Source of the DNA: a virus | Lineage: Duplodnaviria; Heunggongvirae; Uroviricota; Caudoviricetes | Length of the DNA: 14,304 nt | Direction: 5' to 3' (one strand) | Virus record (IMG/VR): IMGVR_UViG_2681813271_000007 | Part shown: piece by piece, positions 1-14,304 of the stretch | How positions within the stretch are numbered: position 1 is the first letter of the stretch | Layout: each line of letters begins with the position of its first letter | Notes under the pieces: generated by a model | What the model was told of the DNA's origin: nothing | The model's input: only the letters and a program-made list of their open reading frames with translations | Database searches by the model: none | Position numbers and translations under genes: made by a program

Positions 1-90
1 CTCAGCAAATGATACATTGCCATGAGATAAATCATTACGATGTTGTTTAACAGTGGCTAATTTTTCACCATGTTTAGTGTGAGTGTTCAT
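1..90 (-). CDS. hypothetical small protein, 5' part only (continues beyond left edge); fourth gene of cargo cassette
   Basis: ATG at 90..88 on minus strand, in-frame stop one codon upstream; hand translation MNTHTKHGEKLATVKQHRNDLSHGNVSFAE open to window edge; overlaps end of upstream gene by 17 nt; AT-rich like neighbours; no clear SD. Confidence 0.35.
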   Translation of the reverse strand, partial: MNTHTKHGEKLATVKQHRNDLSHGNVSFAE

Positions 91-397
91 TTTTTAATCT
101 TTTTAATATTTCTGACCTGAGATTTTTCCTGAGTTTGTCAAATTCTACGTTTCTATCATAAATAGTCTCATGAATAAGGCAGATAGCTTCTCTCATTGTT
201 GATTCAATGAGGTTATATAACAGTATATATACTGCTCCCTTTAGAGTTTTTCGTGATTGAGCAGTAATGGAGAACTTATGTTCTTTATCATCAGCTGATA
301 TCAGTTCTGCACCGGCATACTCAATAAATTTCAAAAGATCCAAATAGGCCAAGATCTCTCCTGACCTTTCGTCAAAATCCTCACGAAAACGATCCAT
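74..397 (-). CDS. hypothetical protein (107 aa), third gene of cargo cassette
   Basis: ORF in track; strong SD (AGAGGA) 6-7 nt upstream of ATG embedded in end of upstream gene; stop-1nt-start junction (TAACATG) suggests translational coupling; AT-rich; no domain recognised. Confidence 0.6.
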   Translation of the reverse strand: MDRFREDFDERSGEILAYLDLLKFIEYAGAELISADDKEHKFSITAQSRKTLKGAVYILLYNLIESTMREAICLIHETIYDRNVEFDKLRKNLRSEILKRLKNEHSH

Positions 398-398
398 G

Positions 399-722
399 TT
401 AATCCTCTAATAATTTATCCCGAACATATTCAATTCGTTCAATTACCTTCACGCGACTATTAGCTCCGTCGGAAGTGGTCAATCGTTTGAATTCTTCTGA
501 GCTTAGCCAATCTAAGTTCTTGGGAACAAGGTCAGGGACTTCACGTAATGCAAGTGCTGCGCCAACAGCGAGAGATTCGAATCTAACTCGAGGTGTAGAT
601 TTTGCAGTAATAGTTTTCTTGAATCCTGCTGGGAAATAGTTTTCAACAAAAGATAGAACATTAGCAAACTCTTGTTTCATTGAGTTTTGTTTAGTTTCGT
701 CTATATCTCGATTTTCTGACAT
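399..722 (-). CDS. hypothetical protein (107 aa), possibly the C-terminal continuation of the DUF262 protein
   Basis: ORF in track; weak/no SD; its frame stays open upstream of the ATG all the way into the N run at 755..793 (..HSVRDFLNDY-M..). Confidence 0.5.
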   Translation of the reverse strand: MSENRDIDETKQNSMKQEFANVLSFVENYFPAGFKKTITAKSTPRVRFESLAVGAALALREVPDLVPKNLDWLSSEEFKRLTTSDGANSRVKVIERIEYVRDKLLED

Positions 723-726
723 ATAG

Positions 727-1587
727 TCATTTAGAAAATCCCGTACGGAATGATNNNNNNNNNNNNNNNNNNNNNNNNNNNNNNNNNNNNNNNTTGTACT
801 TATCTACGTAGGCAAAGAATCTTAATGTAAATTCTAACCGTTCATCTCGTTTTTCTTTAGTCTGAGATAAAGGTGCTAATTCTTTAAATTTAGGTATTGT
901 TGAGCATGGCTTAATAACCTGTGTATATAAATTTGTTGAACCAAGTTCTGATCCNNNNNNNNNNNNNNNNNNNNNNNNNNNNNNNNNNNNNNNNNNNNNN
1001 NNGCCAGAGTTAATACGCTCAAAAAGATCTCTACGGGTTTCTTCATTGCATTTAGAACTCAATTCTATAACGCGGACAGGAATTCTCATGAAACGACGTT
1101 GACGTGATAATGGTAAATCTTGGAATTTGAAACCATTAAGGACGTCTAAAGATTTCAGGTCTTGTAAAACTAATTCATTTTGGATAAAAGCGTGTATAGT
1201 CCTAACTCGTTGTGAGCCATCAACAATCTCAATTCGCCCATCTAAATCGGGATCTTCGGAGAGAACATCTGCTATAAATATATATGGTATAGGAAAACCC
1301 AAAATCAAAGACTCTATCAATTTTGATTGTCTTTTTTCACTCCAAACAAAATCCCTTTGATAATCAGGAACAAAGAGTTCGTTAGTATCATCCTCTAATC
1401 CGTTATGATACTTATTAACTAATAACTCAACGGTAAATTCTTTGGTCTCAAAATCCACATCCTTTTGCTCAGCACGAATTTGCTCTTCAGCGTTTTGCTT
1501 TATCACCTCTAGCTGAGCAAGCAACTCTGCTCTTTTCTTGGCATTATCTTCATTTTCTAGTTGAGATTTTAAATCAATAATGTCCAT
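727..1587 (-). CDS. DUF262 / ParB-like domain protein (GmrS-like N-terminal domain family), interrupted by two N runs
   Basis: Translation contains VPDYQRDFVW ... LILGFPIPYIFI ... IEIVDGSQRVRTIHAF ... FERINSG, matching the hallmark YQR..W and DGQQR-type motifs of DUF262; preceded by ~45 aa charged coiled-coil-like N-terminus; first ATG at 1587 with AAGGGAA SD 8 nt upstream (track ORF extends to TTG at 1605). Confidence 0.7.
   Translation of the reverse strand: MDIIDLKSQLENEDNAKKRAELLAQLEVIKQNAEEQIRAEQKDVDFETKEFTVELLVNKYHNGLEDDTNELFVPDYQRDFVWSEKRQSKLIESLILGFPIPYIFIADVLSEDPDLDGRIEIVDGSQRVRTIHAFIQNELVLQDLKSLDVLNGFKFQDLPLSRQRRFMRIPVRVIELSSKCNEETRRDLFERINSGXXXXXXXXXXXXXXXXGSELGSTNLYTQVIKPCSTIPKFKELAPLSQTKEKRDERLEFTLRFFAYVDKYXXXXXXXXXXXXXXSFRTGFSK
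755..793. other. run of 39 N (masked or unsequenced bases) inside DUF262 gene
   Basis: seen directly in sequence. Confidence 1.
955..1002. other. run of 48 N (masked or unsequenced bases) inside DUF262 gene
   Basis: seen directly in sequence. Confidence 1.
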
Positions 1588-1605
1588 GTCTAGTTCCCTT
1601 AACAA

Positions 1606-1772
1606 GTGTTAAAAATTGAAGCGGATAGCATACCGCATAGATCATGAAAAATGCCATCATGTGCATGGATTTGCATGCGTCAGAAGTCGCTTTTATTGTT
1701 AGTTATCACTAGCGCTGGCGTGCTCTTGGAGTGTTCATGCAACTGCATTAAAACCGCCCCATGAAGCGGGCG
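1606..1772 (-). promoter_or_regulatory. putative promoter/operator region of the cargo operon
   Basis: Non-coding gap between cos and first cargo gene; contains direct repeat TGCATG..TGCATG (1662..1677) and several CATG motifs; no convincing sigma70 -35/-10 pair found by eye. Confidence 0.25.
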
Positions 1773-1791
1773 GGCGAGGCGGGGAAAGCAC
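1773..1791. other. cos: P2-type cos site (19-nt cohesive end)
   Basis: Sequence GGCGAGGCGGGGAAAGCAC matches my recollection of the P2 cohesive end; lies just beyond the 3' end of portal gene Q as in P2. Confidence 0.6.
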
Positions 1792-1931
1792 TGCGCGCTG
1801 GCGGTGGTGCTGATTTTATTTTCCAGCGTCTCAGCGCGTCGTGACGGCGCTTAGTCTGCCCGTTGGGCGTTGGTGTGTCTGCGGGATTTTTTGTGCGGTG
1901 ATGAGCGTGTGAGGGCGTGATGGCGGGGTGT

Positions 1932-1953
1932 AAAAAAGCCGCCCGCAGGCGGC
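1932..1953 (-). terminator. rho-independent terminator downstream of Q
   Basis: GCCGCC-cgca-GGCGGC hairpin (1938..1953) followed on the minus strand by TTTTTT (1932..1937), 5 nt after the Q stop codon. Confidence 0.6.
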
Positions 1954-2993: not shown

Positions 2994-4765
2994 CAGTAAA
3001 ACTCCAGAATGGTGGATGTCAGCGGAGTGCTGATACCGGCGGTGAGTGGCTCATTTAACAGGGCGTGCATGGTTGCCCAGGCGAGGTCGGCGTGGCTGGC
3101 TTCCTCGCTGCGGCTGGCCTCATAGGTGGCACTGCGTCCGCTGCTGGTCATGGTCTTGCGGATAGCCATGAACGAGCTGGTGATGTCGGTGGCGCTGACG
3201 TCATATTCCAGACAGCCACGGCGGATGACGTCTTTGGCCTTGAGCACCATTGCGGTTTTCATTTCCGGCGTGTAGCGGATATCGCGCGCGGCGGGATAGA
3301 ACGAGCGCACGAGCTGGAACACGCCGACACCGAGGCCGGTGGCATCAATACCGATGTATTCGACGTTGTATTTTTCGGTGAGTTTGCGGATGGACTCCGC
3401 CTGGGTGGCAAAGTCCATGCCTTTCCACTGGTGACGCTCAAGTATTCTGAATTTGCCACCGGCCACCACCGGCGGTGCCAGCACCACGCATCCGGCGCTG
3501 TCGCCACGGTGTGACGGGTCGTAACCAATCCATACCGGGCGGGAGCCGAACGGATTTGCGGCAAACGGCGCGTAGTCTTCCCATTCTTCCAGCGTGTCGA
3601 CCATGCAGCGTTGCAGCTCCTCGAACGGGAACACCGATACCTTGTCGTCAACAAATTCACACATGAACAGGTTTTTAAAATCGTCGGCGCTGTTTTCGCG
3701 TTTGAGCTGCTCAATGTCGAACAATGTGCAGCCGCCTTTCAGGGCGTCCTCAATGGTGACAATCTGCCGCCACTGGCCGTCCGCACAGAGAAGACCACCG
3801 GCAAGGGCGTTATGACTGACGTCGATTTCCACACGTTCGGCGGCGCTGGCGCGTCCCCGGTTGAACAGTTCACCCGACCAGAACGGGTAGGCGTCGTGCG
3901 CCAGCGTGGACGGGGTGGAGAAATAGGTCGAGCGCAGGTGACTCTGTGAGGCCATACCTGATGCCACCTTACGCAGTACCTGAAAATTCGGGATCCAGAA
4001 AATCTCGTCGACGTACAGGTCGCCGTTATGGCTCTGTGCGGTGTTGGAGTTGGTGCCGAGAAAAATCAGTTTTGCGCCGTTATTGCCCAGGACAATCGGG
4101 TCACCGGTCAGGTCAACGTCAACCAGACGAGCAAAGGCGATGATGTATTCACGGAACACATACGCCTGCGTTTTACTGGCCGACAGAAAAATCTGGTTAT
4201 GGCCGGTTTTCAGGGCGCGCAGCAGCGCCTCGCGGGAAAAATAAAACGTCGCGCCAATCTGGCGGGATTTCAGGATATCGCGGATGCGGTGCTCAAGCCC
4301 GGCACGATACCAGTGCAACTGATAGTCGAAAGACTGCTCAAAGAAAATCTGCTCCAGCTTTTCGATGGCCTCGTCACTGAAAAAATTCTTTTTCGGTTTG
4401 CGACGCCCGCCTTTGTTGCGGTTAGCGATGTTCGGATTAAGGTCTGCCTCGTTGCCGGTCTGGCTGTAGCGGTTTACCCGTGCCAGTCGTTCAATCTGGC
4501 GTCCGAGCAGGTCAATTTCCTTGAAGTCACCGCCGGTTTTCTGCGGTTTGATGATGAGCTGGGTCAGCCGCGCTTCCAGACTCATTTCGACACGGCTGAT
4601 GGGGGCAACACTGTCCCAGCCGTCGCGCTGTTTCCAGCTCTGCACCGTCGGGCGTTTCATCTGCAACATGGCGGCAATCTGCGGCACGGAAAACCCCTGC
4701 CAGTACAGCAGCGCCGCCTGACGACGCGGGTCGTGTAAAAGAGTGGTGTCTGTGGTGATGGTCAT
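2993..4765 (-). CDS. P: terminase large (ATPase) subunit, P2 gpP
   Basis: 590 aa from ATG at 4765 (MTITTDTTLL..) with GAGG SD; track ORF extends 10 codons further upstream; size/order match P2 P. Confidence 0.93.
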   Translation of the reverse strand: MTITTDTTLLHDPRRQAALLYWQGFSVPQIAAMLQMKRPTVQSWKQRDGWDSVAPISRVEMSLEARLTQLIIKPQKTGGDFKEIDLLGRQIERLARVNRYSQTGNEADLNPNIANRNKGGRRKPKKNFFSDEAIEKLEQIFFEQSFDYQLHWYRAGLEHRIRDILKSRQIGATFYFSREALLRALKTGHNQIFLSASKTQAYVFREYIIAFARLVDVDLTGDPIVLGNNGAKLIFLGTNSNTAQSHNGDLYVDEIFWIPNFQVLRKVASGMASQSHLRSTYFSTPSTLAHDAYPFWSGELFNRGRASAAERVEIDVSHNALAGGLLCADGQWRQIVTIEDALKGGCTLFDIEQLKRENSADDFKNLFMCEFVDDKVSVFPFEELQRCMVDTLEEWEDYAPFAANPFGSRPVWIGYDPSHRGDSAGCVVLAPPVVAGGKFRILERHQWKGMDFATQAESIRKLTEKYNVEYIGIDATGLGVGVFQLVRSFYPAARDIRYTPEMKTAMVLKAKDVIRRGCLEYDVSATDITSSFMAIRKTMTSSGRSATYEASRSEEASHADLAWATMHALLNEPLTAGISTPLTSTILEFY

Positions 4766-5851: not shown

Positions 5852-6924
5852 ATGCGCCAGGAAACCCGCTTTAAATTTAATGCTTACCTGTCCCGTGTTG
5901 CCGAGCTGAACGGCATCGACGCCGGTGATGTGTCGAAAAAATTCACCGTTGAACCGTCGGTCACCCAGACCCTGATGAACACCATGCAGGAGTCCTCTGA
6001 CTTTCTGACCCGCATCAACATTGTGCCGGTCAGTGAAATGAAAGGGGAAAAAATTGGCATCGGTGTCACCGGCTCCATCGCCAGCACCACCGACACCGCC
6101 GGTGGCACCGAGCGTCAGCCGAAGGACTTCTCGAAGCTGGCGTCAAACAAGTACGAATGCGACCAGGTTAACTTCGATTTTTATATCCGCTACAAAACGC
6201 TTGACCTGTGGGCGCGTTATCAGGATTTCCAGCTCCGTATCCGTAACGCCATTATCAAACGCCAGTCCCTTGATTTCATCATGGCCGGTTTTAACGGCGT
6301 GAAGCGTGCCGAAACCTCTGACCGCAACAGTAATCCGATGCTGCAGGATGTGGCGGTCGGCTGGCTGCAGAAATACCGAATGAAGCCCCGGCGCGCGTGA
6401 TGAGCAAGGTCACTGACGAGGAAGGCCGCACCACCTCTGAGGTTATCCGCGTGGGTAAGGGCGGTGATTATGTAAGCCTCGATGCACTGGTGATGGATGC
6501 GACCAACAACCTGATTGAACCTTGGTATCAGGAAGACCCTGACCTTGTGGTGATTGTGGGGCGTCAGCTACTGGCGGACAAGTATTTCCCTATCGTCAAC
6601 AAGGAGCAGGATAACAGCGAGATGCTGGCCGCTGACGTCATCATCAGCCAGAAACGCATCGGTAACCTGCCGGCGGTACGCGTCCCGTACTTCCCGGCGG
6701 ATGCGATGCTCATCACGAAGCTGGAAAACCTGTCCATCTACTACATGGATGACAGCCATCGCCGCGTGATTGTGGAAAACCCGAAACTCGACCGCGTGGA
6801 GAACTACGAGTCAATGAACATTGATTACGTGGTGGAGGACTACGCCGCCGGTTGTCTGGTGGAAAAAATTAAGGTCGGTGATTTCTCCACACCGGCTAAA
6901 GCGACCGCAGAGCCGGGAGCGTAA
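5852..6924 (+). pseudogene. N: major capsid protein P2 gpN, disrupted by a -1 frameshift near 6378..6381 (fragments 5852..6400 and 6397..6924)
   Basis: Two adjacent ORFs of 182 and 175 aa in different frames, overlapping by 4 nt; together 357 aa, the expected size of P2 N; upstream frame ends ..GWLQKYR then MKPRRA-stop, downstream frame reads NEAPARVMSKVTDE.. Confidence 0.75.
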
Positions 6925-13620: not shown

Positions 13621-13630
13621 GTGAGGAATA

Positions 13631-14304
13631 ATGAGCACAAAATTCAGAACCGTTATCACCACTGCCGGTGCAGCAAAGCTGGCAGCGGCAACCGCACCGG
13701 GAGGGCGGAAGGTCAACATTACCACGATGGCCGTCGGGGATGGCGGTGGTAAATTGCCTGTCCCGGATGCCGGACAGACCGGGCTTATCCACGAAGTCTG
13801 GCGACATACGCTGAACAAAATCAGCCAGGACAAACGAAACAGTAATTATATTATCGCAGAGCTGGTTATTCCGCCGGAGGTGGGCGGTTTCTGGATGCGT
13901 GAGCTTGGCCTGTACGATGATGCGGGAACGTTAATTGCCGTGGCGAACATGGCCGAAAGTTATAAGCCAGCTCTTGCCGAAGGCTCAGGGCGTTCGCAGA
14001 CCTGTCGCATGGTCATCATCGTCAGCAGTGTGGCCTCGGTGGAGCTGACCATTGACACCACAACGGTGATGGCGACACAGGATTACGTTGATGACAAAAT
14101 TGCAGAGCACGAACAGTCACGACGTCACCCGGACGCCTCGCTGACCGCAAAAGGTTTTACTCAGTTAAGCAGTGCGACCAACAGCACGTCTGAAACACTG
14201 GCCGCAACGCCGAAAGCGGTAAAGGCCGCCTATGACCTTGCTAACGGGAAATATACCGCACAGGACGCTACCACAGCTCGAAAAGGTCTTGTCCAGCTCA
14301 GTAG
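13631..14304 (+). CDS. H: tail fibre protein P2 gpH, N-terminal part (continues beyond right edge)
   Basis: Not in ORF track because no stop inside window; hand translation from ATG 13631 gives MSTKFRTVITTAGAAKLAAATAPGGRKVNITTMAVGDGGG.. with no stops to the window end; GAGG SD. Confidence 0.88.
   Translation, partial: MSTKFRTVITTAGAAKLAAATAPGGRKVNITTMAVGDGGGKLPVPDAGQTGLIHEVWRHTLNKISQDKRNSNYIIAELVIPPEVGGFWMRELGLYDDAGTLIAVANMAESYKPALAEGSGRSQTCRMVIIVSSVASVELTIDTTTVMATQDYVDDKIAEHEQSRRHPDASLTAKGFTQLSSATNSTSETLAATPKAVKAAYDLANGKYTAQDATTARKGLVQLS

What the first reader, a model, noticed from the sequence alone, without database searches (positions are those of the whole stretch)
1..1772. AT-rich four-gene cargo cassette at the old/tin position next to cos
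Immediately left of cos, where phage P2 carries its non-essential old and tin exclusion genes, this prophage has an unrelated block of four minus-strand genes read away from cos. They are separated by 4 nt, 1 nt and a 17-nt overlap, so they look like a single translationally coupled operon. The block is far more AT-rich than the flanking phage genes, which indicates separate horizontal acquisition. This locus is a documented hotspot for anti-phage defence systems in P2-like prophages. The largest gene is a DUF262/ParB-like protein and the rest have no recognisable domains. This gene combination at this locus is a strong candidate for an uncharacterised defence or exclusion system; the cassette continues past the left edge, so its full content is unknown.
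Basis: partly seen in the sequence, partly recalled or inferred. Interest (0 to 1): 0.85.

Follow-up and report, generated by a model that had tools for sequence, protein, structure and literature searches.

The report
Broken DUF262–HEPN defence cassette beside cos
The AT-rich block next to the cos site of this P2-like prophage is two genes, not four: a ParB/DUF262 protein and a HEPN RNase, from a cassette already catalogued at this hotspot, and an assembly gap plus a 161-base deletion make them look like four.

Summary
The AT-rich block is real: 35.5% GC against 56.9% for the rest of the window. It lies directly left of cos (window 1774-1792), in the P2 old/tin hotspot.

The four-gene operon is not real.
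- Genes 1 and 2 are one DUF262/ParB gene (380 aa in intact relatives). The reading frame switches exactly across a 39-N assembly gap, where relatives have 8 nt.
- Genes 3 and 4 are one MAE_28990-family HEPN gene (226 aa). A 161-nt deletion removes 54 codons and puts the catalytic Rx4H motif out of frame.

The window is an entire draft contig, so it cannot be extended leftwards. In all 9 complete E. coli genomes with the cassette, the layout is gpA, a C5-cytosine methyltransferase, then HEPN and DUF262 on the opposite strand, then cos, all uninterrupted.

Prior knowledge:
- Rousset 2022 Table S5A lists this arrangement with the protein accessions of the intact E. coli relative L001.
- Anantharaman 2013 described the MAE_28990 + ParB + methylase operon type.
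- The validated system PD-T4-2 (Vassallo 2022) has the same DUF262 + HEPN architecture, but this clade is distinct in sequence.

Likely mechanism (inferred): a DNA-sensing NTPase controls a HEPN RNase, and the methylase marks self DNA. As assembled, this copy lacks a working effector. Interest is low to moderate.

The parts
399..1587 (-). One gene for a ParB/DUF262 (GmrSD_N) protein with a C-terminal helical domain, 380 aa in intact relatives. Two assembly gaps interrupt it here.
755..793 (.). Run of 39 N standing where intact relatives have 8 nt (CAAAGTTC). The 31 extra positions cause the apparent frameshift and the false stop at 727-729.
   Evidence: Alignment to L001. The same N run is in the stored copy of the source contig. 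Frames are given.
955..1002 (.). Run of 48 N standing where intact relatives have 33 nt. The difference of 15 keeps the frame.
   Evidence: Alignment to L001.
86..397 (-). N-terminal 104 codons of the MAE_28990-family HEPN gene. The start codon lies 1 nt after the DUF262 stop. After the deletion junction the frame runs into a stop at 74-76.
   Evidence: Pfam HEPN_MAE_28990 1.2e-9. 98% identical to aa 1-104 of the 226-aa E. coli protein.
85..86 (.). Junction of a 161-nt deletion relative to L001 9086-9246. It removes HEPN aa 105-158, including the conserved SGNID motif, and shifts the frame.
   Evidence: Alignment and tblastn frames. The deletion is absent from all 9 complete E. coli genomes with the cassette. 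The junction sequence was not found in viral contigs.
1..84 (-). Out-of-frame remnant of the HEPN C-terminal part (aa 159-186), holding the catalytic Rx4H motif RNDLSH. The last 40 codons and the stop lie beyond the contig end.
   Evidence: 100% identical to aa 159-186 of the E. coli protein. Pfam HEPN_MAE_28990 profile positions 152-176. R174, N175, H179 and G180 are invariant in 56 homologues.
1588..1753 (-). Untranslated spacer upstream of the DUF262 gene (GC 46% over 1606-1773). It is the presumed promoter region, with an AAGGGA Shine-Dalgarno-like motif about 8 nt before the ATG.
   Evidence: Sequence. The consensus scan found no sigma-70-like site here at its thresholds, so the promoter is inferred, not shown.
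1754..1773 (-). GC-rich hairpin followed by a T run, abutting cos. It is terminator-like and could insulate the cassette from leftward late transcription of the P and Q genes.
   Evidence: Pattern scan: 5 terminator-like sites in 1-2000 against 1.1 expected. This is a consensus match only.
1774..1792 (+). P2-type cos cohesive-end sequence GGCGAGGCGGGGAAAGCAC, the right boundary of the hotspot.
   Evidence: Identical to bases 1-19 of the linear genome record of Peduovirus L-413C.

Best explanation
Window 1-1772 carries the cos-proximal part of a three-gene cargo module of the P2 old/tin hotspot.

Gene content:
- A ParB/DUF262 NTPase with a helical DNA-binding domain (380 aa in intact relatives).
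- A MAE_28990-family HEPN ribonuclease (226 aa), whose start lies 1 nt after the DUF262 stop.
- In every intact relative, a convergent C5-cytosine DNA methyltransferase. In this assembly it would lie beyond the contig end.

The four ORFs are these two genes broken up. An assembly gap of wrong length splits DUF262. A 161-nt deletion splits HEPN.

Proposed mechanism (inferred):
1. The DUF262 protein is an NTP-driven DNA sensor, as in BrxU, SspE and NsnA.
2. The methyltransferase marks host and prophage DNA as self.
3. Incoming DNA that lacks the mark triggers the sensor.
4. The sensor releases or activates the partner HEPN RNase.
5. RNA cleavage stops phage gene expression, possibly at the cost of the infected cell.

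In this contig as assembled the HEPN effector is truncated and its Rx4H motif is out of frame, so this copy is predicted to be inactive.
For: Shown:
- Gene identities: Pfam, PADLOC and PHROGs.
- Frame analysis and alignment to intact relatives.
- All 9 complete E. coli genomes with the cassette hold Dcm + HEPN + DUF262 in one uninterrupted piece.
- In loci from many phyla, every locus with a full-length DUF262 match and enough downstream DNA (28 loci) has HEPN immediately downstream. A C5-methyltransferase is adjacent in about 20, either upstream in the same direction or downstream and convergent.
- Conserved catalytic motifs: DUF262 D75-Y-Q-R78 and D123-G-S-Q-R127; HEPN R174-N-x-L-x-H179-G.
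- The same layout occurs at the same hotspot in Peduovirus P24B2 and in a Tatumella P2-like prophage.

From the literature:
- PD-T4-2 (DUF262 + HEPN) defends against T4 on a plasmid and in its native strain (PMC9519451).
- In SspE, the DUF262 NTPase senses DNA modification and activates the fused nuclease (PMC10952713).

Inferred: the sensor-to-effector logic, self-marking by the methylase, and the RNA target.
Against: - No experiment on this clade was found.
- The HEPN protein matches no PADLOC model, including PD-T4-2_B. The DUF262 protein scores better on Menshen NsnA than on PD-T4-2_A, so transferring function from PD-T4-2 is analogy, not membership.
- A clade at 40-44% identity lacks the methylase.
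- In Peduovirus P24B2 the methylase reading frame is broken while DUF262 and HEPN are intact. This argues against strict dependence on the methylase, unless that frameshift is a sequencing error.
- ParB/Srx proteins can nick DNA themselves, so the DUF262 protein might be an effector as well as a sensor.
- The methylase cannot be seen in this window.
- Whether the 161-nt deletion is real or a wrongly closed assembly gap is unknown.
Confidence: 0.6

Rival explanations
1. The cassette is intact in the living strain. On this view the two N runs, the 161-nt deletion and the 1-nt deletion in the capsid gene are all errors of a low-coverage short-read draft in an AT-rich region, so the prophage carries a working DUF262-HEPN(-Dcm) system.
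For: - The window is a 14.3-kb draft contig that ends inside the cassette and holds two N runs of wrong length within 250 nt.
- No complete genome shows the deletion.
- Several database entries for this HEPN are partial (P0124, P0155, P0172). That would fit frequent assembly breaks in this AT-rich region, but their contig positions were not checked.
- The truncated 107-aa product is on record for this contig only.
Against: - The deletion is a clean join without N and without flanking repeats, which is not the usual signature of a collapsed assembly.
- An independent frameshift in the essential capsid gene N would fit a decaying prophage equally well.
Confidence: 0.4
2. It is a modification-dependent (type IV-like) restriction module. 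The DUF262 protein recognises modified phage DNA, such as hmC or glucosyl-hmC of T-even phages, as GmrSD and BrxU do. The neighbouring methyltransferase is unrelated cargo, for instance protecting the phage from host restriction.
For: - The closest solved folds are the type IV enzymes BrxU and SspE.
- Rousset 2022 Table S6 labels a Vibrio DUF262 + DUF262/DndB + HEPN_MAE_28990 system as type-IV restriction.
- PD-T4-2 was selected with T4.
- A methylase-less clade exists.
Against: - There is no DUF1524/HNH nuclease domain.
- The methylase stays adjacent across phyla in two different orientations and outside phages, which points to functional linkage.
Confidence: 0.2
3. It is a classical restriction-modification-like system. 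The ParB/DUF262 protein is itself the DNase that cuts unmethylated DNA, and HEPN is an accessory or back-up RNase.
For: - Anantharaman 2013 calls the partner a ParB nuclease in a methylase operon.
- A PADLOC model labelled type II restriction enzyme (PDLC03418) matches the DUF262 region weakly (3e-5 to 6e-13).
- ParB/Srx proteins with nicking activity are cited in PMC12839542.
Against: - In the characterised DUF262 enzymes the domain is an NTPase and sensor, and cleavage is done by a separate DUF1524 domain (PMC10952713).
- HEPN adjacency is universal in the loci examined while the methylase is not.
Confidence: 0.15
4. One reading: a single four-gene, translationally coupled operon encoding a DUF262 protein and three proteins without known domains, a new gene combination.
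For: The mechanical ORF list and the gene calls on the draft contig give 286 + 107 + 107 aa plus a partial ORF.
Against: - The frame switches coincide with an N run and a deletion.
- Every intact relative has two genes.
- ORFs 2-4 match the C-terminal part of DUF262-family profiles and the HEPN_MAE_28990 profile.
Confidence: 0.03

Closest known systems
ParB(DUF262) + MAE_28990 HEPN + DNA methylase operon (Anantharaman et al. 2013, Biol Direct 8:15, Table 1); listed for the P2 hotspot in Rousset et al. 2022, Table S5A
   Same: - Same three domain families in the same neighbourhood.
- Rousset's table gives WP_000351260 + WP_001697730 + WP_000373633. These are the accessions annotated in the intact relative L001, which is about 98% identical to the window.
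   Different: - The copy in this window is gapped and its HEPN gene is broken.
- The methylase is not on the contig.
- The published entries are catalogue or comparative-genomics entries. No function was tested.
PD-T4-2 (Vassallo et al. 2022; E. coli ECOR65; DUF262 + HEPN)
   Same: - Two-gene operon with DUF262 first and HEPN second.
- E. coli mobile-element cargo.
- PD-T4-2_A profile matched over its full length (5e-35, positions 55-355 of 363).
- The HEPN here also passes Pfam RiboL-PSP-HEPN (36 bits against a cut-off of 28.4), the family reported for PD-T4-2.
   Different: - The HEPN protein matches no PADLOC model, so PD-T4-2_B is not matched.
- PD-T4-2 is smaller: 1540 bp for both ORFs against about 1825 bp.
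- No methylase is described for PD-T4-2.
- The DUF262 protein scores higher on NsnA than on PD-T4-2_A.
Menshen (NsnABC; Millman 2022; Menshen analysis in NAR 2025, PMC12065111)
   Same: The DUF262 protein matches the NsnA profile end to end (2e-54, positions 23-376 of 385). This implies the same ParB-DUF262 + helical ParBDB architecture that is proposed to sense DNA.
   Different: - There is no NsnB ABC ATPase and no NsnC effector. The neighbour is a HEPN nuclease.
- The Menshen paper itself lists PD-T4-2 as a separate DUF262 system.
GmrSD / BrxU / SspE type IV restriction enzymes
   Different: - No DUF1524/HNH nuclease domain.
- The effector is a separate HEPN protein.
- Sequence similarity is confined to about 35-70 residues.
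P2 old and tin
   Same: Same genomic position between gpA and cos, transcribed away from cos. Non-essential cargo, presumably with an exclusion function.
   Different: No Pfam or PADLOC hit suggests homology to old or tin. No direct comparison with the old and tin proteins was made.

Membership tests
MAE_28990 HEPN + ParB + methylase operon (Anantharaman 2013) | HEPN protein of the MAE_28990 family with a conserved Rx4-6H motif | tested here: met
   Window fragments hit PF18737 (1.2e-9 and 0.005). The intact homologue scores 2.8e-29, 103 bits against a cut-off of 26.8. R174 and H179 are invariant in 56 sequences. In the window the motif is present (RNDLSH, within 1-84) but out of frame.
MAE_28990 HEPN + ParB + methylase operon (Anantharaman 2013) | Adjacent ParB-superfamily (DUF262) gene in the same operon | tested here: met
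   The DUF262 stop and the HEPN start are 1 nt apart. The adjacency is kept in every locus with a full-length DUF262 match and enough downstream DNA (28 loci).
MAE_28990 HEPN + ParB + methylase operon (Anantharaman 2013) | Adjacent DNA methyltransferase gene | not testable with these tools
   The contig ends 123 nt before the HEPN stop. A methylase is present in all 9 complete E. coli genomes, in Peduovirus P24B2, in Tatumella, and in about 20 of the loci examined.
PD-T4-2 | Gene A matches the PD-T4-2_A profile | tested here: inconclusive
   5e-35 (119 bits) over profile positions 55-355 of 363 for the intact homologue, but NsnA scores higher at 183 bits. No true PD-T4-2_A sequence was available for calibration.
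PD-T4-2 | Gene B matches the PD-T4-2_B profile | tested here: not met
   No PADLOC hit for the HEPN protein of L001, L002, L022, L028 or P24B2; that of L025 hits only Csx1/Csm6 weakly.
PD-T4-2 | Two-gene DUF262 then HEPN operon that confers phage resistance | not testable with these tools
   The architecture is met. The resistance phenotype needs an experiment.
Menshen (NsnABC) | NsnA-like ParB-DUF262 + ParBDB protein | tested here: met
   PADLOC NsnA 2e-54, profile positions 23-376 of 385.
Menshen (NsnABC) | NsnB ABC ATPase and NsnC effector immediately downstream | tested here: not met
   The downstream gene is HEPN, followed by the methylase. The genes flanking the cassette in L001 carry no ATPase annotation.
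GmrSD / BrxU / SspE | DUF262 NTPase domain with conserved motifs | tested here: met
GmrSD / BrxU / SspE | C-terminal DUF1524 (His-Me/HNH) nuclease domain in the same protein | tested here: not met

The most novel reading that the evidence does not exclude
The methyltransferase-linked DUF262 + MAE_28990 HEPN triad could be a distinct, still untested class of restriction-modification-like immunity. In it, the cytosine-methylation state of DNA is read by a ParB-fold NTPase, and the output is RNA cleavage by a HEPN nuclease rather than DNA cleavage. P2-like phages would then spread it among Enterobacterales.
Probability: 0.3. Interest if true: 0.55.

Novelty: new member of a known kind. Interest (0 to 1): 0.3.

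Why it matters
For this window, the main value is corrective. An apparent four-gene novel operon is a draft-assembly and deletion artefact of a two-gene module that is already catalogued at the P2 hotspot.

More broadly, the Dcm + DUF262 + MAE_28990 HEPN triad is widespread. It is conserved across many phyla and is common in Enterobacterales, at least partly within P2-like prophages. It has the architecture of a validated system (PD-T4-2), yet I found no experimental work on it. Testing whether DNA methylation gates an RNase effector would be a reasonable but unsurprising addition to defence-system biology. An intact copy, such as the one in E. coli 2014EL-1345-2, would be the copy to test, not this one.

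Tried and rejected
- Extending the contig leftwards: impossible. The exact-protein look-up shows the window is the whole 14,304-bp contig CXCM01000103.1 of GCA_001256555.1.
- Finding the source genome or a second copy of the deletion: the genome-contig scan returned no locus above 84% identity, and the junction 31-mer is absent from viral contigs.
- Filing under Menshen: rejected, because NsnB and NsnC are absent.
- Filing under GmrSD/BrxU: rejected, because there is no DUF1524 domain.
- Filing as PD-T4-2 proper: rejected. The HEPN protein has no PD-T4-2_B hit, and all tested clade members score alike (about 1e-33 to 1e-36) on PD-T4-2_A.
- Sequence search of solved structures: only marginal DUF262 hits, at best E = 0.002 with a profile.
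- NCBIfam: no specific model for either protein.
- Rfam: nothing in the window.
- Promoter scan: no sigma-70-like site at the tool's thresholds in the 1588-1753 spacer.
- Literature: no paper testing the triad was found.
- The searchable text of Vassallo 2022 does not say whether PD-T4-2 acts by abortive infection or direct immunity.
Full report
**What is in the sequence**

The mechanical ORF list gives four minus-strand ORFs in 1-1772:
- 727-1605, with an ATG at 1587
- 399-722
- 74-397
- a partial ORF starting at 90 and running off the left edge

The block has 35.5% GC, against 56.9% for the rest of the window. No other 1605-nt stretch of the window falls below 53.8%.

The sequence GGCGAGGCGGGGAAAGCAC at 1774-1792 is identical to the first 19 bases of the linear genome of Peduovirus L-413C, so cos directly abuts the block. 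The rest of the window is an ordinary P2/L-413C-type late region (Q, P, O, N, M, L, X, lysis genes, R, S, V, W, J, I and the start of H). It is 98% identical to sequenced Peduoviruses.

The window also contains two runs of N, at 755-793 (39 N) and 955-1002 (48 N), both inside the largest ORF.

**Four ORFs are two genes**

Nine of 5,426 complete E. coli genomes carry the same block at about 98% identity (one at 88%). There it is annotated as only two genes: a 380-aa DUF262 protein and a 226-aa MAE_28990/MAE_18760-family HEPN-like nuclease.

I aligned the window to one of them, L001 (NZ_CP024223.1). Three differences matter:
1. The 39-N run stands where L001 has 8 nt.
2. The 48-N run stands where L001 has 33 nt.
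3. 161 nt of L001 (9086-9246) are missing between window 85 and 86.

tblastn of the intact proteins on the window shows the consequence:
- DUF262 aa 1-259 lie in frame -1 (1587..796) and aa 264-380 in frame -2 (752..402). Only four residues are unaccounted for where 13 codons of N stand. The frame change occurs exactly across the N run.
PADLOC had already placed it on PD-T4-2_A profile positions 257-356 of 363.
- HEPN aa 1-104 lie in frame -3 (397..86) and aa 159-186 in frame -1 (84..1).
- The deletion removes 54 residues, including the conserved SGNID motif, and shifts the frame.
- The fourth gene begins at an ATG (88-90) that lies just upstream of the deletion junction and comes into frame with the remnant only because of the deletion. 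It is the out-of-frame remnant that carries the catalytic RNDLSH (Rx4H) motif.

Only the 1-nt DUF262/HEPN junction is a true gene boundary.

**Why the sequence is in this state**

The exact-protein look-up shows that the window is the entire contig CXCM01000103.1 (14,304 bp) of the draft assembly GCA_001256555.1. The N runs are in the stored copy too.

The contig ends inside the AT-rich HEPN gene, 123 nt before its stop. It has two gaps of wrong length within 250 nt. It also has a 1-nt deletion that splits the major capsid gene N into 182-aa and 174-aa products.

I read the N runs as assembly gaps with imprecise size estimates. This is an inference. It is supported by the fact that all nine complete genomes have uninterrupted genes at these positions.

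The 161-nt deletion is a clean join without N. It may be a real lesion in a decaying prophage or a wrongly closed gap, and I cannot tell which. I put the artefact reading at about 0.4.

**The full cassette and its distribution**

In all nine complete E. coli genomes the order is gpA replication endonuclease, a C5-cytosine methyltransferase (340 aa; Pfam DNA_methylase 4e-58; TIGR00675), then HEPN and DUF262 on the opposite strand, then cos and the portal gene.

The same layout sits at the same place in two other P2-type elements:
- Peduovirus P24B2, with proteins only 45% (DUF262), 30% (HEPN) and 72-77% (methylase) identical. The methylase reading frame is broken there.
- A P2-like prophage of Tatumella terrea.

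A scan of one genome per species found 33 loci from Gammaproteobacteria, Bacteroidota, Planctomycetota, Cyanobacteria, Acidobacteriota and others. Every locus with a full-length DUF262 match and enough downstream DNA (28 loci) has HEPN immediately downstream of DUF262. A C5-methyltransferase is adjacent in about 20 of them, either upstream in the same direction or downstream and convergent. A clade at 40-44% identity lacks the methylase.

Close homologues (75-87% identity) occur in Klebsiella, Salmonella, Cronobacter, Serratia, Pantoea, Pectobacterium, Yersinia, Proteus and Providencia. They are named only "DUF262 domain-containing protein" and "MAE_28990/MAE_18760 family HEPN-like nuclease". 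PHROGs holds both proteins as families of unknown function, phrog_2598 and phrog_3846.

**What the proteins are**

DUF262 protein:
- Pfam GmrSD_N (4.7e-26).
- Full-length matches to PADLOC NsnA (2e-54) and PD-T4-2_A (5e-35).
- Invariant D75-Y-Q-R78 and D123-G-S-Q-R127 in 50 homologues. These correspond to the DUF262 motifs needed for nucleotide hydrolysis in related enzymes (literature).
- There is no DUF1524/HNH domain.

HEPN protein:
- Pfam HEPN_MAE_28990 (2.8e-29) and RiboL-PSP-HEPN (8.5e-9; 36 bits, above the 28.4 cut-off).
- Invariant R174, N175, H179, G180 and G136, N137.

No solved structure is detectably related by sequence beyond a short DUF262 motif.

**How it most likely works**

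Shown here:
- A ParB-fold NTPase with intact motifs and a helical C-terminal domain.
- An obligately adjacent HEPN protein with an intact RNase motif.
- A frequently adjacent C5-methyltransferase.

Established for relatives:
- NsnA is proposed to be the DNA sensor of Menshen.
- HEPN domains are metal-independent RNases used as effectors in many defence and toxin systems.
- PD-T4-2 (DUF262 + HEPN) protects against T4 both on a plasmid and in its native strain.

Inferred: the DUF262 protein surveys DNA and the methylase marks self DNA. Unmarked or foreign DNA triggers an NTP-dependent switch that frees or activates the HEPN RNase, which shuts down gene expression.

Two observations weigh against strict methylase dependence. 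One clade lacks the methylase, and the P24B2 methylase is frameshifted.

The rivals are a type IV-like reading (modified DNA is the trigger and the methylase is unrelated) and a classical restriction-modification reading (DUF262 as the DNase).

In the contig as assembled the effector is truncated, so this copy is predicted to be inactive.

**Comparison with what is known**

- The operon type is in Anantharaman et al. 2013, Table 1: "MAE_28990 ... [quoted passage not shown]
- Rousset et al. [quoted passage not shown] These are exactly the accessions annotated in L001. The 89% allele is listed too. Their table of tested systems contains no DUF262 entry.
- The clade is not PD-T4-2 proper, because no PD-T4-2_B match was found and PD-T4-2 is smaller.
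- It is not Menshen, because NsnB and NsnC are absent.
- It is not GmrSD, because DUF1524 is absent.

I found no paper that tests the triad.

**Verdict**

The AT-rich cargo block at the old/tin position is real and is very probably a defence module. However, the four-gene operon and the "no recognisable domains" statement are artefacts of a gapped, damaged draft copy.

The cassette is a catalogued member of the ParB/DUF262 + HEPN kind, with a methylase in intact copies. I rate novelty as a new member of a known kind and interest at 0.3.

The residual novelty lies in the untested methylase-linked triad as a class. It should be studied from an intact copy.

Noticed in passing
window ~6378 (major capsid gene N, about 5852-6924, + strand): A 1-nt deletion relative to L001 (ATACCGCAATG becomes ATACCGAATG) splits the P2-family major capsid gene into 182-aa and 174-aa products in the assembly's gene calls. 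This means either a defective prophage or a draft sequencing error.
   Followed up: partly
L037 (Peduovirus P24B2, NC_049387.1) about 3255-3259: At the same hotspot P24B2 has a divergent allele of the triad: DUF262 45%, HEPN 30% and methylase 72-77% identical. The C5-methyltransferase reading frame is broken (annotated as 234 aa) while DUF262 and HEPN are intact. If real, this argues against strict dependence on the methylase.
   Followed up: partly
L001 compared with L037, and L004-L031: Among alleles the HEPN effector diverges fastest (about 30-40% identity) and DUF262 is intermediate (45-63%). The methylase is the best conserved between the two P2-hotspot alleles (72-77%), though in the cross-phylum loci it is no more conserved than DUF262 (about 50-56%). 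This fits diversifying pressure on the effector.
   Followed up: no
window 1754-1773 and 1938-1953, minus strand: Two GC-rich hairpins followed by T runs flank cos, one just after the portal gene Q and one abutting cos on the cassette side. Terminator-like sites are enriched in 1-2000 (5 found against 1.1 expected).
   Followed up: no
window about 13630-14304: The right end of the contig falls roughly 670 nt into the tail-fibre gene H, so both contig ends lie inside genes.
   Followed up: no
proteins P0124, P0155, P0172: Several database entries for this HEPN protein are labelled partial, in E. coli and Salmonella. This may reflect short-read assemblies breaking inside this AT-rich cassette; their contig positions were not checked.
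   Followed up: no
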